From: a virus
Lineage: Duplodnaviria > Heunggongvirae > Uroviricota > Caudoviricetes
Length of the DNA stretch: 34,983 nt
Strand: one strand, 5' to 3'
Virus record (IMG/VR): IMGVR_UViG_3300045988_118832
Part shown: positions 24,848-28,109 of the stretch, one piece after another
How positions within the stretch are numbered: position 1 is the stretch's first letter
Layout: every line of letters starts with the position of its first letter
Program-made: the position numbers and the translations under genes
Notes under the pieces: model-generated
The model's database searches: none
Seen by the model: only the letters and a program-made list of their open reading frames with translations
Told to the model about the DNA's origin: nothing

Positions 24848-25258
24848 TCAGTATGTGAAATAGACAGTTGCCACGCCGTTATAGTGATCAAACGACACGG
24901 CGTTTACCTCATAACTGGCCGGGAGCTTCGAGCCAAGAACGTATCCGGGCCACGTTTTCCATGGAATTTCTCTGCGCTCACTATCGCCATATACCGTACA
25001 TCCCAGTGAGCCTACAGCTTCATTAGAACGCGTGCCGCACGTTATAAATCCCAGATTTTGCTTACTGCTCTTAATGGTGATTGGGTGAACGCTGGCTGAT
25101 GCATTAGCAGCACGCTGTGCCTGTTGGTTTGCGATATTCGCAGAGTTCGCAGCAGCTACAGCAGCCGTAGTCGCGGCGGTAGAGGCTACAATAGCTGCTG
25201 AAGCATGCACTTGTTGGGTAATTGTCAGCAATGCCGCCACAAAAACCATTTTCTTCAC
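24848..25258 (-). CDS. Secreted protein with signal peptide; candidate moron
   Basis: GTG start with AAGGAGG 6 nt upstream; MKKMVFVAALLTITQQVHA signal-like N-terminus, Ala-rich linker, Cys-containing C-terminal domain. Confidence 0.55.
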   Translation of the reverse strand: MKKMVFVAALLTITQQVHASAAIVASTAATTAAVAAANSANIANQQAQRAANASASVHPITIKSSKQNLGFITCGTRSNEAVGSLGCTVYGDSERREIPWKTWPGYVLGSKLPASYEVNAVSFDHYNGVATVYFTY

Positions 25259-25270
25259 CTGGCACCTCCT

Positions 25271-25450
25271 TTACATACCGTGATTTTTCCAGCGGTTTTG
25301 GGCTGCGCTTCTGTTTCGCCAGACACCGTAAAAACGAATAGAGGACCACTCCCTAAAACCAAGATATCTATAGCGAACAACAAGCCGATTTGAGATACGG
25401 ATAAGCTGTCCGGGTTTTGCTATCAGCAGTCTTGCTTTACGGTTTTTCAT
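25271..25450 (-). CDS. Small basic protein (59 aa), hypothetical
   Basis: Not in the ORF track (<60 aa). ATG at 25450 with AGGAG 9 nt upstream; stop abuts the SD of the secreted-protein gene. Confidence 0.35.
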   Translation of the reverse strand: MKNRKARLLIAKPGQLIRISNRLVVRYRYLGFREWSSIRFYGVWRNRSAAQNRWKNHGM

Positions 25451-25454
25451 CGTT

Positions 25455-26090: not shown

Positions 26091-26801
26091 TTACACCCTC
26101 CCCAGTGCCAGCGTTTTGTTGCTCTGACCATTAACCCCCTGATGCAGTCTGGCGTTTTTCCCGGCGATAAAACCGGCTGTAGCGGCAGACTCTGCACCCC
26201 GGCACGCTTTAGCGGTGCGCATATCCCCGTCGCGCAGTCCCTTGGTGCTGTGCAGGTTCTTTCTGTAAAGCTCAAGGCGGCTTTTTTCTTCCGGGGAGAC
26301 GTCATACACCGCAATGACATCACGGGCACCAAAGACCCAGCCTTCGCAGAACTGGTCGCCACGGGCCACCCGCGTGGACGGGCCGCAACGTTTGCAGTGT
26401 TTATCCTGATATTTCTTGCGCTCTGCCATCATCTGACGGGAAAGCACATCAAACGCGTAGGCCGCGATTTCCGGGCGGCTGTCAGGACCATAAAAACGAA
26501 CGTAACGTTTGAGTGAACCAGAAGCCCGGTATTCGCCGGAGATGTAACACTCGACACCGAAGGCTTTACAGACCAGGTCACACAGGATGTGCATATAACG
26601 CGGCGGTGTACTGGCATCACTCGGCGCGCCCGCGCTGGCAGCGTCCTGAATGTCGAACAATTCCGCGTCGTTTTCGCTGATACCATGCTGGCGCATATAA
26701 GCCTGGGCTTTTGCAATAGCGTTAGCGGCTTCTTCCGGGCTTGATGTCCCTCTTGCAAGGCGTAACAGCTTTTTAATTTTGGCGATGTATTTATTTTTCA
26801 T
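26091..26801 (-). CDS. DUF2786-like protein with Cys-rich C-terminal region
   Basis: 236 aa; MKNKYIAKIKKLLRLARGTSSPEEAANAIAKAQAYM... matches the DUF2786 pattern as I recall it; C-terminal HCKRCGP...FCEGW suggests a metal-binding module. Confidence 0.55.
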   Translation of the reverse strand: MKNKYIAKIKKLLRLARGTSSPEEAANAIAKAQAYMRQHGISENDAELFDIQDAASAGAPSDASTPPRYMHILCDLVCKAFGVECYISGEYRASGSLKRYVRFYGPDSRPEIAAYAFDVLSRQMMAERKKYQDKHCKRCGPSTRVARGDQFCEGWVFGARDVIAVYDVSPEEKSRLELYRKNLHSTKGLRDGDMRTAKACRGAESAATAGFIAGKNARLHQGVNGQSNKTLALGRV

Positions 26802-26814
26802 GGTCGTCTGAACC

Positions 26815-26997
26815 TCAGCATCCTGAATTCTGAATTACGCAACTTCCGGCACGGCCTTCAGGAACGTGGGGAGTTCGTTCTGGCTGCGGTACTGAATGAG
26901 CATCTGCTGTCGATTGAGAACTGGTCGCAAGACGATTAAAACAAACGATTGTCAGATTAATTTCGCGGGCGAACTTTTTTTGCTTTGCGATATTCAT
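26815..26997 (-). CDS. Hypothetical small protein (60 aa), low confidence
   Basis: ATG preceded by GGAGAG and the repeated hairpin unit; composition unconvincing. Confidence 0.25.
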   Translation of the reverse strand: MNIAKQKKFAREINLTIVCFNRLATSSQSTADAHSVPQPERTPHVPEGRAGSCVIQNSGC

Positions 26998-27072
26998 AAA
27001 TAAACTCTCCCTGACTCAGGCGTAAGCCAGCCCCGGCGGGTTTACGCCATATACAAATAAAATTAAAAACAG
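26995..27072 (-). repeat. Hairpin-plus-RBS repeat unit, copy A
   Basis: Minus strand TGTTTTTAAT...GGCGTAAACCCGCCGGGGCTGGCTTACGCC...GGAGAG..ATG; about 65 bp shared with copy B. Confidence 0.5.
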
Positions 27073-27077
27073 ACTTA

Positions 27078-27629
27078 TTAACTACGACGTTCAGTTTTCC
27101 GGTAATGACGGTCAACAGATTTAACGAACGCCTTCACATCACGGGAAATCGAATCCAGCGGATAATATTCATCCAGTAGTTCCATTCCACTGAATCGAAT
27201 CTGAAAAAAATCAGGCTTATCTTTATATGACTCCATCAGGTCAATAAACCGCAACTGACGCGGGAGGGATTCCTGCACGCCTGAAATAGTGAGCAAATCA
27301 TCTTCAAGGATGTATGCGAGGTCTTCCATATCCTTACAGTCAGACAGCATGGTTATTCTTGTCAGTATGTTCCGTGTGGCGATATACAGCGCTGCTGTGT
27401 CATTCGCCATCATGGCGAACAAATCCCCCTGAATATACGCCCCGCTACTGGCCACAGCATTCCCGGCAATCTGGGCATCAAGCACCACATCCATAAAATT
27501 ACCCGGTGCTCCCAGACAGCCCAGCAAGGATGACGCCCATAACGTTACATTGGTTAACTTCTCAGATGAACGGGTGGCAAAACCTTCAGGAGTAACAATA
27601 AAATCCCAGACTTTATCTTTCATATACAA
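27078..27629 (-). CDS. Hypothetical protein (183 aa), low-GC cargo gene
   Basis: ATG with AAGAGGA upstream; by-eye GC on sampled lines is about 40-45%, clearly below the structural genes; bracketed by two copies of a ~65-bp hairpin-containing repeat. Confidence 0.5.
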   Translation of the reverse strand: MYMKDKVWDFIVTPEGFATRSSEKLTNVTLWASSLLGCLGAPGNFMDVVLDAQIAGNAVASSGAYIQGDLFAMMANDTAALYIATRNILTRITMLSDCKDMEDLAYILEDDLLTISGVQESLPRQLRFIDLMESYKDKPDFFQIRFSGMELLDEYYPLDSISRDVKAFVKSVDRHYRKTERRS

Positions 27630-27697
27630 ATCCTCTTGATTCAGGCGTAAGCCAGCCCGGCGGGTTTACGCCTGTTTTAAATAACAATTAAAAACAA
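27627..27697 (-). repeat. Hairpin-plus-RBS repeat unit, copy B
   Basis: Same hairpin (one C fewer in the loop) and flanks, directly upstream of the 183-aa gene start. Confidence 0.5.
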
Positions 27698-27703
27698 ATT
27701 AAA

Positions 27704-27895
27704 TTAATGCGGTGCTTTCAGTGTTTCGATTTTAACGAAATAAGGCTCGACATTAATTTCAACCACACAACCACATTTAAAATCTCTGGCAGGTGAAACG
27801 GTTTTCACCACACGACCACCACGCAACGCCGGATGTGCAGTGTGCATGAAGCGAGTCCCTACCGGATACTGCTTATTAAAGTTCTTCGCATTCAT
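27704..27895 (-). CDS. Hypothetical protein (63 aa)
   Basis: In-series with neighbours; no recognisable motif. Confidence 0.35.
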   Translation of the reverse strand: MNAKNFNKQYPVGTRFMHTAHPALRGGRVVKTVSPARDFKCGCVVEINVEPYFVKIETLKAPH

Positions 27896-28109
27896 GGCGT
27901 GGCCTCCAGCCCTTCAGGTGAGCGTTAGCGCAGAACTCCGCACGATGTTCAGCCCAGATGCGGCGCAGGGTGCTACACGGGCTTTGCGCTGCCTTGCGCC
28001 ACAGTTTTTCTGCCTCATCATAATCGCCGCGTTGTTCTGCTCTGGATGCACCCAGCGAATACGCCGCGCAACGATTTCCGGCTCTGTACTCTTTGATATC
28101 CTGATGCAT
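27876..28109 (-). CDS. ANR-like small regulator (78 aa), tentative
   Basis: ATG at 28109, 2 nt after the upstream stop (MHQDIKEY...); ...GDYDEAEKLWRKAA...RRIWAEHRAEFC resembles ANR-family proteins by memory only. Confidence 0.35.
   Translation of the reverse strand: MHQDIKEYRAGNRCAAYSLGASRAEQRGDYDEAEKLWRKAAQSPCSTLRRIWAEHRAEFCANAHLKGWRPRHECEEL

What the first reader, a model, noticed from the sequence alone, without database searches (positions are those of the whole stretch)
27078..27629. 183-aa orphan protein in the cargo island
This is the largest unassigned gene in the early region. It has its own strong SD, shows no nuclease, ATPase or HTH motif that I can recognise, and sits between the two hairpin repeats. 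Proteins of this size in Mu-like early regions have repeatedly turned out to be host-takeover or exclusion factors, but that is only a positional argument here.
Basis: inference. Interest (0 to 1): 0.5.

Follow-up and report, generated by a model that had tools for sequence, protein, structure and literature searches.

The report
Orphan accessory gene in Mu-like prophage
This is a real but dispensable gene of unknown function, found only in Mu-like prophages of E. coli (with a distant cousin in Salmonella), that sits as a swappable cassette between two copies of a conserved DNA hairpin; this is ordinary for a phage early region, and no function could be assigned.

Summary
The ORF is real. It lies on the minus strand at 27078-27623 and encodes 181 aa from an ATG with a good Shine-Dalgarno sequence, not the 183-aa TTG form. 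It is intact in 28 of 5,426 complete E. coli genomes, always at the same place in the early operon of a Mu-like prophage, and it is under purifying selection (dN/dS 0.23-0.41).

It is a true orphan. Pfam, NCBIfam, PADLOC and PDB give nothing, and PHROG 7741 is labelled 'unknown function'. An exhaustive HMMER search of 1.84 billion representatives found only its own cluster. The one distant relative is a 188-aa Salmonella protein at the same site, with 38% identity over the C-terminal ~70 aa. AlphaFold models are all-helical but low-confidence, and fold searches gave nothing specific.

The gene is a 624-bp cassette bounded by two copies of a conserved hairpin. A 99.76%-identical prophage lacks exactly this segment, and relatives carry other cassettes at the site.

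The function remains inferred. I favour an early-expressed, non-essential, host-directed binding protein (host takeover or anti-defence) over a lysogen-expressed exclusion factor.

The parts
27078..27623 (-). CDS of the 181-aa orphan protein ('T181'), ATG start, TAA stop
   Evidence: It matches PHROG 7741 over its full length, E 1e-117. It is intact in 28 of 5,426 E. coli genomes. dN/dS is 0.23-0.41.
27631..27637 (-). Shine-Dalgarno sequence AAGAGGA, 7 nt before the ATG
   Evidence: Read directly from the sequence. It is unpaired in the predicted RNA fold.
27642..27674 (-). Upstream copy of the conserved hairpin (GGCGTAAACCCGCCGGGCTGGCTTACGCC core)
   Evidence: Inverted repeat I11. CM hit 27621-27694, 95.5 bits. 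Covariation supports the stem.
27017..27049 (-). Downstream copy of the same hairpin
   Evidence: CM hit 26995-27070, 91.1 bits.
27032..27655 (.). 624-bp cassette: the exact segment missing from a 99.76%-identical prophage, with both ends inside the hairpin copies
   Evidence: Global alignment with E. coli JNE21-009 (L003): 5 mismatches in 2,041 nt and a single indel. The span is 2,665 vs 2,041 bp.
27051..27082 (.). AT-rich part of the direct repeat next to the downstream hairpin (partner at 27676-27707)
   Evidence: Direct repeats D1 and D3.
26802..26940 (+). 3' remnant, without a start codon, of a plus-strand 72-aa gene that is intact in E. coli E2348/69. It fills most of the 'spacer' between the cassette and DUF2786.
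   Evidence: The 60-aa minus-strand ORF 26815-26997 overlaps it and is not annotated in RefSeq.
27704..27895 (-). Conserved 63-aa gene that forms the upstream border of the hotspot
26091..26801 (-). DUF2786/DUF7168 gene that forms the downstream border of the hotspot

Best explanation
T181 is a genuine, non-essential accessory gene carried as a promoter-less cassette in the early operon of an E. coli Mu-like prophage. That operon is by analogy with Mu repressed in the lysogen and driven from Pe.

Shown:
- The gene is translated from its own SD and ATG, in the same direction as ner-A-B and about 5.2 kb downstream of them.
- It encodes a soluble, all-helical protein without a signal peptide or membrane segment.
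- Its C-terminal ~70 residues are the only part conserved with the single distant relative, a Salmonella protein at the same site.
- Its N-terminal half evolves fast.
- The gene is gained and lost as a 624-bp unit bounded by two copies of a conserved hairpin, at a site where related prophages carry other cassettes.

Inferred:
- It is made during induction or infection rather than in the lysogen.
- It acts by binding a host protein, or a protein of a host defence or competing element. That would make it a host-takeover or anti-defence factor, with the conserved C-terminal module as scaffold and the variable N-terminal half as the specificity surface.
- Cassette turnover occurs by homologous recombination within the ~50-100-nt repeat of AT-rich tract, hairpin, SD and first codons. 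It is not site-specific.
For: Real gene: SD and ATG; intact in 28 of 28 genomes; dN/dS 0.23-0.41.

Orphan.

Context: the gene is always at the same place, in the order MuA, MuB..., DUF3164, ANR, 63-aa gene, T181, DUF2786..., GemA, Mor.

No own promoter: no sigma-70-like promoter on the minus strand upstream of the gene. The hairpin has no U-tract on the sense strand.

Soluble and helical: maximum Kyte-Doolittle score 1.2 over 19 aa; AF2 secondary structure.

Dispensable: it is absent from about half of the related prophages, including one that is 99.76% identical.

Fast evolution: omega is 2-4 times that of DUF3164, ANR, the 63-aa gene, DUF2786 and MuB. Variable columns number 49 of 105 in the N-terminal part and 18 of 76 in the C-terminal part, p 0.0018. 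GC is 46% against 54% for the window.

Distant homologue: conserved only at the C-terminus, BLASTP E 4e-10, hhalign probability 93.5%.

Recombination at the repeat: the cassette junctions fall at different points of the repeat. In L024 the repeat includes the 3' end of the 63-aa gene, and in L009 it includes the first six codons, MKDKVW.

Precedent: a neighbouring early gene is a bona fide ANR-family member, 57.9 bits against a cut-off of 32, a family that works by protein-protein binding to host regulators (PMC5570504). Aqs1 of the Mu-like phage DMS3 is a small host-directed inhibitor (PMC13436744). Accessory genes are confined to fixed loci in Pseudomonas Mu-like phages (PMC4378225).
Against: - There is no functional evidence of any kind.
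- No homology or fold match points to a target.
- The AF2 models are low-confidence (pLDDT 56-59), so even 'helical bundle' is tentative.
- A promoter-consensus scan cannot exclude a weak or non-sigma-70 promoter, so expression in the lysogen is not ruled out.
- Elevated dN/dS is equally compatible with relaxed constraint on a nearly neutral passenger.
- The acidic pI (4.75) is not shared by the Salmonella relative (6.44), so no DNA-mimic argument can be made.
- No defence or anti-defence gene of known function was found among the other cassettes at the hotspot, so guilt by association gives nothing.
Confidence: 0.4

Rival explanations
1. T181 is a prophage-encoded exclusion or defence factor. 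It would be expressed in the lysogen and protect the host from other phages or from superinfection.
For: The gene is variable, dispensable, of low GC and fast-evolving, as defence cargo in prophage hotspots typically is. The same hotspot in some relatives holds oppositely oriented small genes of 72 and 86 aa that could be expressed independently of the early operon.
Against: - It has the same orientation as the early operon, with no promoter-like site upstream.
- It has no signal peptide or transmembrane segment, unlike most exclusion proteins.
- No PADLOC model matches it or its Salmonella relative.
- It is a single small protein without an enzymatic motif.
Confidence: 0.15
2. T181 is a phage-internal accessory factor. 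It would modulate transposition or replication, the early-to-middle switch, or the activity of the neighbouring DUF2786 or DUF3164 proteins, rather than a host target.
For: It lies between conserved early genes of unknown function and upstream of GemA and Mor. Its conserved C-terminal module could contact a conserved phage protein.
Against: Near-identical prophages lack it without any compensating change. It occurs with DUF2786 alleles ranging from 85 to 100% identity, and its Salmonella relative occurs with a 67%-identical allele. Core partners would be expected to co-vary with it.
Confidence: 0.15
3. T181 is a nearly neutral passenger ORFan or a selfish element. It would persist because the hairpin repeats keep shuffling it between prophages, with little or no phenotype.
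For: - Its distribution is tiny: 0.5% of complete E. coli genomes, and only one cluster among 1.84 billion representatives.
- Constraint is relaxed relative to its neighbours.
- One frameshifted allele (L032) and one 55-aa remnant (L007) exist.
Against: dN/dS is clearly below 1 over dS up to 0.33. The ORF is intact in all 28 complete genomes that carry it. The C-terminal module is retained across the E. coli-Salmonella divergence at the same locus.
Confidence: 0.2
4. It is not a protein-coding gene but a chance ORF or a non-coding region.
For: It has no homologues outside one narrow lineage, and the structure prediction has low confidence.
Against: It has an SD at the right spacing. Its length is conserved. 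Synonymous changes outnumber non-synonymous ones per site. The one indel is in frame (4 codons). It matches a PHROG profile over its full length. Rfam finds nothing significant.
Confidence: 0.02

Closest known systems
ORFan cassettes flanked by PeSL (promoter-early stem-loop) motifs in hyperplastic regions of T4-type phages (Arbiol et al. 2010, PMC2839356; PMC4122927)
   Same: Small non-essential ORFans of unknown function are bounded by repeated intergenic motifs made of an AT-rich tract, a stem-loop, an SD and a start codon. Insertions, deletions and replacements between close relatives map to recombination between these motifs.
   Different: No sigma-70 promoter is part of the motif here. 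On the sense strand the stem-loop is not followed by a U-tract. The motif occurs only at this one hotspot rather than dozens of times per genome. The phage is a temperate transposable phage, not a T4-like virulent one.
Accessory genome at fixed loci ('regions of genomic plasticity') in Pseudomonas aeruginosa Mu-like phages (Cazares et al. 2014, PMC4378225)
   Same: Both have Mu-like architecture with short variable ORFs of unknown function confined to specific sites between core genes, including the early region.
   Different: There is no sequence relationship. That paper's abstract names no bounding repeat, whereas here a conserved hairpin marks the site.
Semi-essential early region of coliphage Mu (kil, gam, sot, arm, cim, lig, gemA). 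This comparison rests on my own knowledge of Mu biology and was not tested.
   Same: The position is the same, downstream of A and B and upstream of gemA and mor. The gene is non-essential and would be transcribed from the early promoter.
   Different: T181 has no detectable similarity to any phage record in GenBank/INPHARED at protein level, so presumably none to Mu. It matches no Pfam family, so not the Mu Gam family either.
Small host-directed early proteins of Mu-like Pseudomonas phages, e.g. Aqs1 of DMS3 (PMC13436744), and ANR-family anti-activators (PMC5570504, PMC4038620)
   Same: These are small, enzyme-motif-free proteins that act by binding host proteins. An ANR-family gene lies two genes upstream in the same operon.
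   Different: There is no homology. T181 is 2-3 times larger, and a target is neither known nor predicted.
Integron gene cassettes (ORF + attC hairpin)
   Same: Promoter-less ORFs are each associated with an imperfect hairpin and are arrayed in one orientation at one site.
   Different: No integron integrase was seen. The hairpin is 30 nt and nearly invariant in sequence. The junctions fall at variable points of a longer repeat, which indicates homologous rather than site-specific recombination.

Membership tests
PHROG 7741 (phage protein family, unknown function) | Full-length match to the family profile | tested here: met
   E 1.3e-117, residues 1-181 against profile 1-181 of 181. Membership carries no functional information.
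Any Pfam / NCBIfam family (including Mu Gam, HTH, nuclease and ATPase families) | Score above the curated cut-off | tested here: not met
   Pfam gives 0 families at E<=10. NCBIfam gives only a 12.5-bit NusA C-terminal repeat hit against a cut-off of 48.
Known anti-phage defence systems (PADLOC-DB v2) | Match to a defence-protein model | tested here: not met
   0 families at E<=10 for T181. 0 at E<=1 for the Salmonella relative and seven other hotspot cassette proteins. Anti-defence model libraries were not available.
Proteins of solved or predicted structure (fold-level membership) | Confident model with a specific fold match | tested here: inconclusive
Moron (autonomously expressed prophage cargo gene) | Own promoter upstream and own terminator downstream | tested here: not met
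   No promoter-like site on the minus strand upstream. The flanking hairpins lack a U-tract on the sense strand. This is a consensus scan only, so weak promoters are not excluded.
PeSL-type mobile regulatory cassette (T4-type phages) | Repeat containing a stem-loop that bounds ORFan indels | tested here: met
   The 624-bp indel ends inside the two hairpin copies. The stem has 5 pairs with compensatory changes, and 0 of 500 shuffles reach the observed covariation score.
PeSL-type mobile regulatory cassette (T4-type phages) | Strong sigma-70 early promoter within the repeat, and many copies dispersed in hyperplastic regions | tested here: not met
   No promoter was found. The CM finds copies only at this hotspot in the window and in four related loci.
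Membrane or periplasmic superinfection-exclusion proteins | Signal peptide, lipobox or transmembrane helix | tested here: not met
   Maximum 19-residue Kyte-Doolittle hydropathy is 1.21 for T181 and 1.12 for the Salmonella relative. The N-terminus MKDKVWDFIVTPEG is not signal-like. No dedicated TM or signal-peptide predictor was available.
Integron cassette | attC site recombined by an IntI integrase | not tested
   No integrase is annotated in the 17 kb around the gene in the near-identical RefSeq prophage. attC models were not run. The variable junction positions argue against site-specific recombination.

The most novel reading that the evidence does not exclude
T181 and its Salmonella relative would found a new family of early-expressed phage effectors. 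A conserved C-terminal helical module would carry a rapidly diversifying N-terminal specificity domain that neutralises a host defence or host factor. The conserved 30-nt hairpin would be a dedicated cassette-exchange and RNA element that marks an accessory-gene hotspot in the early operon of Mu-like transposable phages from Escherichia, Salmonella, Citrobacter and Phytobacter to Pseudomonas.
Probability: 0.25. Interest if true: 0.6.

Novelty: new member of a known kind. Interest (0 to 1): 0.33.

Why it matters
If T181 proves to be an anti-defence or host-takeover protein, it would add a family with no relatives in any database. It would also supply natural isogenic prophage pairs with and without the gene for testing, since the two versions are 99.76% identical outside the cassette.

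The hairpin-bounded hotspot is a practical handle. The same conserved stem-loop lies after the DUF3164 gene and the 63-aa gene in Mu-like prophages of several genera. It could therefore be used to harvest accessory cassettes systematically for functional screens.

As it stands, the gene is an ordinary uncharacterised phage ORFan.

Tried and rejected
- Family libraries: Pfam, NCBIfam, PADLOC and PHROGs gave only an 'unknown function' PHROG.
- Phage records: tblastn against 50,697 phage records gave no match.
- Protein databases: a word-indexed search of 5.8 billion proteins found only E. coli proteins of at least 85% identity. Exhaustive HMMER over 1.84 billion representatives found its own cluster, a fragment and one spurious eukaryote-like repeat protein, P0023. 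A profile search with the combined E. coli and Salmonella alignment found nothing new.
- Solved structures: a PDB sequence profile search gave nothing.
- Transmembrane or pore-forming idea, prompted by the Gly/Ala-rich segment at residues 26-80: rejected on hydropathy.
- DNA-mimic or anti-restriction idea, prompted by the acidic pI: weakened because the Salmonella relative is near-neutral.
- HTH idea around the conserved RxSGxE motif: on inspection the helix that would be the recognition helix is acidic, and Pfam gives no HTH match.
- Guilt by association: the other hotspot cassettes (DUF7448 and the 125-, 121-, 88-, 86-, 72- and 71-aa proteins) have no known function.
- Relation to the 173-aa gene after the hairpin in Pseudomonas phage VW-6B: none, hhalign probability 0.1%.
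- Rfam on the region: only a sub-threshold Lnt hit, E 0.52.
- Literature search for the protein accessions and the PHROG id: none found.

Full report
**1. The observation**

The window is a Mu-like prophage of E. coli. A RefSeq chromosome (strain RIVM_C036569) is 99.9% identical across the region. Its annotation gives the order repressor / Ner-like HTH, Mu transposase, MuB-type AAA ATPase, several small ORFs, DUF3164, ANR-family regulator, 63-aa ORF, the target, DUF2786, small ORFs, GemA, Mor, holins, endolysin, terminase. The host genes uspA, uspB and pitA lie beyond the repressor.

The target lies on the minus strand. The ORF listing reports 27078-27629 with a TTG start and 183 aa. The TTG sits only 1 nt after the AAGAGGA Shine-Dalgarno sequence, whereas the ATG at 27623 is 7 nt from it. 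RefSeq, PHROG 7741 and all homologues are 181 aa, or 177 aa with a four-codon in-frame deletion. The gene is therefore 27078-27623 on the minus strand, encoding 181 aa.

The two hairpin repeats are real, at 27017-27049 and 27642-27674.

**2. It is a real gene**

The CDS is present and intact in 28 of 5,426 complete E. coli genomes. All copies are chromosomal and all are annotated as a hypothetical protein.

Between alleles up to 15% divergent, dN/dS is mostly 0.25-0.5. For the same prophage pairs it is 0.23-0.41, against 0.02-0.29 for DUF3164, ANR, the 63-aa gene, DUF2786 and MuB. Selection is therefore purifying, but the protein evolves roughly 2-4 times faster than its neighbours.

Variable alignment columns are concentrated in the N-terminal 105 residues (49 of 105, against 18 of 76 in the rest; Fisher p 0.0018). 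The hot patches are at residues 36-46 and 91-104. GC is 46% against 54% for the window.

**3. It is a true orphan**

- Pfam gave no match and PADLOC gave no match. NCBIfam gave only a 12.5-bit hit far below its cut-off. PHROG 7741 is labelled 'unknown function'.
- tblastn against 50,697 phage records gave no match.
- The 5.8-billion-protein search found 21 proteins, all from E. coli and all at least 85% identical.
- HMMER over all 1.84 billion cluster representatives found only the protein's own cluster, a fragment and one spurious repeat protein.
- A PDB sequence profile search found nothing.
- AlphaFold2 gave an all-alpha model of 8-9 helices at low confidence (pLDDT 56.2, pTM 0.47).
- Hydropathy shows no transmembrane segment, and the N-terminus is not signal-like. 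The pI is 4.75.

**4. One distant relative, found through the hairpin**

I scanned public collections for the hairpin sequence. This returned 29 IMG/VR prophage contigs plus Citrobacter murliniae and Phytobacter.

In one contig (L024) the same site holds a 188-aa ORF. It aligns with T181 at 38% identity over the C-terminal 68 residues (BLASTP E 4e-10). Its close relatives are all Salmonella enterica hypothetical proteins. Profile-profile comparison supports homology for columns 109-174 against 112-179, with probability 93.5% and E 2e-7. The two proteins are colinear and of similar length, with 21-25% overall identity in the joint alignment.

The conserved positions are mostly hydrophobic, plus E131, R143, G146, E148, D162, K168, S169, R172 and H173.

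A profile search with the joint alignment found nothing further. A second AF2 run with the joint alignment was only marginally better (pLDDT 58.6, pTM 0.55). Foldseek against the PDB again gave nothing.

The Salmonella protein is near-neutral (pI 6.4). Acidity is therefore not a family trait.

**5. The gene is a cassette in a hairpin-marked hotspot**

Among the 58 E. coli genomes that carry this prophage region, the interval between the 63-aa gene and DUF2786 varies in size and content. The variants seen were:

| Locus (strain) | Content of the interval |
|---|---|
| L008 | 80 nt with a single hairpin |
| L003 | hairpin plus a 278-bp spacer |
| L010 | T181 alone |
| window | T181 plus spacer |
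| L005 | DUF7448 |
| L002 | DUF7448, T181 and spacer |
| L006 | DUF7448-like gene, T181 and a plus-strand 72-aa gene |
| L004 (E2348/69) | the plus-strand 72-aa gene alone |
| L007 | a plus-strand 86-aa gene |
| L009 | the 177-aa T181 variant plus a 121-aa ORF |

Salmonella-type prophages add 125-, 88- and 71-aa cassettes.

Each minus-strand cassette is preceded by a copy of the hairpin, followed by an SD.

The window and the prophage of strain JNE21-009 differ by 5 substitutions in 2,041 nt and by one clean 624-bp indel (27032-27655). Both ends of the indel lie inside the two hairpin copies.

The repeat extends beyond the hairpin, and by different amounts in different cassettes. In all of them it includes an AT-rich tract. 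In L024 it includes the 3' end of the 63-aa gene. In L009 it includes the SD and the first six codons, MKDKVW. This points to homologous recombination within a shared linker rather than a site-specific mechanism.

A covariance model of the element finds it only at this hotspot, both in the window and in four related loci.

None of the other cassette proteins has a known function or a PADLOC match. Association with neighbours therefore gives no functional clue.

**6. The hairpin itself**

Sequence variants of the hairpin keep the stem through compensatory changes. These variants are the second hairpin of strain C5, the Salmonella variant and Pseudomonas phage VW-6B. Five of 13 pairs show a change on both sides, 86% of cells are paired, 0 of 500 shuffles reach the observed covariation score, and all slid registers collapse.

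The core GGCGTAA...TTACGCC is retained where the flanking proteins are only 40-57% identical. It is also retained at the syntenic position, after DUF3164 and a 65-aa gene, in Pseudomonas phage VW-6B. Most of these loci were found by searching for the pattern, so the apparent invariance is partly ascertainment.

On the sense strand (the minus strand of the window) the hairpin is followed directly by the SD, not by a U-tract. The SD is predicted to be unpaired.

On the opposite strand the stem is stronger, at -25.3 kcal/mol with z -5.1, because G-U pairs replace A-C mismatches. In the upstream copy it is followed there by UUUUAAAU. It may therefore terminate plus-strand (antisense) transcripts, for example from the plus-strand 72- and 86-aa genes that some relatives carry just upstream of it. 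It may also act as a stabilising or processing structure in the early mRNA. The simple terminator scan did not flag it, so this is inference.

Rfam has no significant match.

**7. Most likely function**

Shown:
- The gene is promoter-less by consensus scan.
- It is co-oriented with ner-A-B and about 5.2 kb downstream of them.
- The protein is soluble and helical.
- The gene is dispensable and fast-evolving, with a conserved C-terminal module and a variable N-terminal half.

Inferred:
- By analogy with phage Mu, it is expressed with the early operon after induction or infection.
- It acts by binding a host protein or a defence protein.

Context gives mild support. The gene two places upstream is a genuine ANR-family member (57.9 bits against a cut-off of 32), a family that works by protein-protein contacts with AraC-type activators and H-NS (PMC4038620, PMC5570504). 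Early regions of Mu-like Pseudomonas phages encode small host-directed inhibitors such as Aqs1 (PMC13436744). Their accessory genes sit at fixed loci (PMC4378225).

I put about 0.4 on this reading. The rivals are a lysogen-expressed exclusion or defence factor (0.15), a phage-internal accessory factor (0.15), a nearly neutral shuffled passenger (0.2) and not a gene at all (0.02).

**8. Comparison with known systems**

The nearest described architecture is the PeSL-flanked ORFan cassette of T4-type phages. There, recombination between repeated promoter/stem-loop motifs causes insertions, deletions and replacements of ORFans (PMC2839356). The element here shares the stem-loop, the AT-rich tract, the SD and start codon, and the indel-bounding behaviour. 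It lacks the sigma-70 promoter and the dispersed multi-copy distribution.

T181 is not a moron in the strict sense, because it has no promoter or terminator of its own. It does not look like an integron cassette. It matches no known defence family.

**9. Verdict**

The 'orphan in a cargo island' description is right and is now documented in detail.

The function remains unknown, and the positional argument is only modestly sharpened. This is a new member of a familiar kind, namely uncharacterised accessory ORFans in phage hyperplastic regions.

The more reusable result is the conserved hairpin that marks the hotspot across genera, together with the natural prophage pairs with and without the cassette.

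Noticed in passing
window 27017-27049 and 27642-27674; L046 (Pseudomonas phage VW-6B) 5127-5161; L044 (Citrobacter murliniae); L045 (Phytobacter): The 30-nt hairpin (GGCGTAA...TTACGCC) that bounds the cassette sits at the same syntenic position, after DUF3164 and a ~63-aa gene, in Mu-like prophages of Escherichia, Salmonella, Citrobacter and Phytobacter and in a Pseudomonas fluorescens phage. The flanking proteins there are only 40-57% identical. The stem shows compensatory changes. Its function is unknown; it could be an RNA stabiliser or processing site, an antisense terminator or a recombination linker.
   Followed up: partly
window 26802-26940 (+), overlapping the unannotated minus-strand 60-aa ORF 26815-26997: The 'spacer' between the cassette and DUF2786 is the 3' remnant, lacking a start codon, of a plus-strand 72-aa gene that is intact in E. 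coli E2348/69 (L004 1000-1218) and STEC346. This gene is oriented against the early operon. Other relatives carry an 86-aa plus-strand gene instead. These may be the lysogen-expressed cargo of the hotspot.
   Followed up: partly
window 27876-28109 (-): A 77-aa ANR-family (AraC negative regulator) protein is encoded in the early operon of the prophage, two genes upstream of the target (NF033650, 57.9 bits against a cut-off of 32). ANR proteins are known as anti-activators of virulence regulators and as H-NS binders. A phage-borne early copy suggests interference with host regulators.
   Followed up: partly
L024 5778-6341 (+) (IMG/VR contig; relatives are Salmonella enterica proteins P0024-P0027): A 188-aa Salmonella prophage protein lies at the same hotspot. 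It is the only detectable distant homologue of the target, with C-terminal ~70 aa at 38% identity. It is Cys-rich (9 Cys, including CRCSDC), unlike the E. coli protein.
   Followed up: yes
window 24848-25258 (-): A 136-aa early-region ORF has a signal-peptide-like N-terminus (MKKMVFVAALLTITQQVHASA). It matches PHROG 8805 of unknown function and no Pfam family. On sequence features alone it is a better candidate for a secreted or periplasmic exclusion-type protein than the target.
   Followed up: no
L009 901-1266 (-) (E. coli TUM1881); L007 hotspot; L032 hotspot: A 121-aa cassette protein shares the SD and the first six codons (MKDKVW) with the target, so the recombination repeat extends into the coding start. 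L007 keeps a 55-aa remnant of a diverged T181-like allele, and L032 has a frameshifted 164-aa allele.
   Followed up: partly
window 25280-25452: This is the only stretch of the 8.3-kb early region with a megablast match to any deposited phage genome: Escherichia phage HEMP4, 92% identity over 173 bp. The rest of the early region has no close relative among 50,697 phage records, so this prophage lineage is essentially unrepresented among isolated phages.
   Followed up: no
L022 and L016 hotspot (IMG/VR contigs): Another recurrent cassette at the same hotspot encodes a 125-aa protein with a CPMCG motif (weak Prok-RING_1 hit, E 0.043). An 88-aa protein with an acidic C-terminus (GDDEGCDDE) follows it in L022 and follows the 188-aa gene in L024. 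Both are uncharacterised.
   Followed up: no
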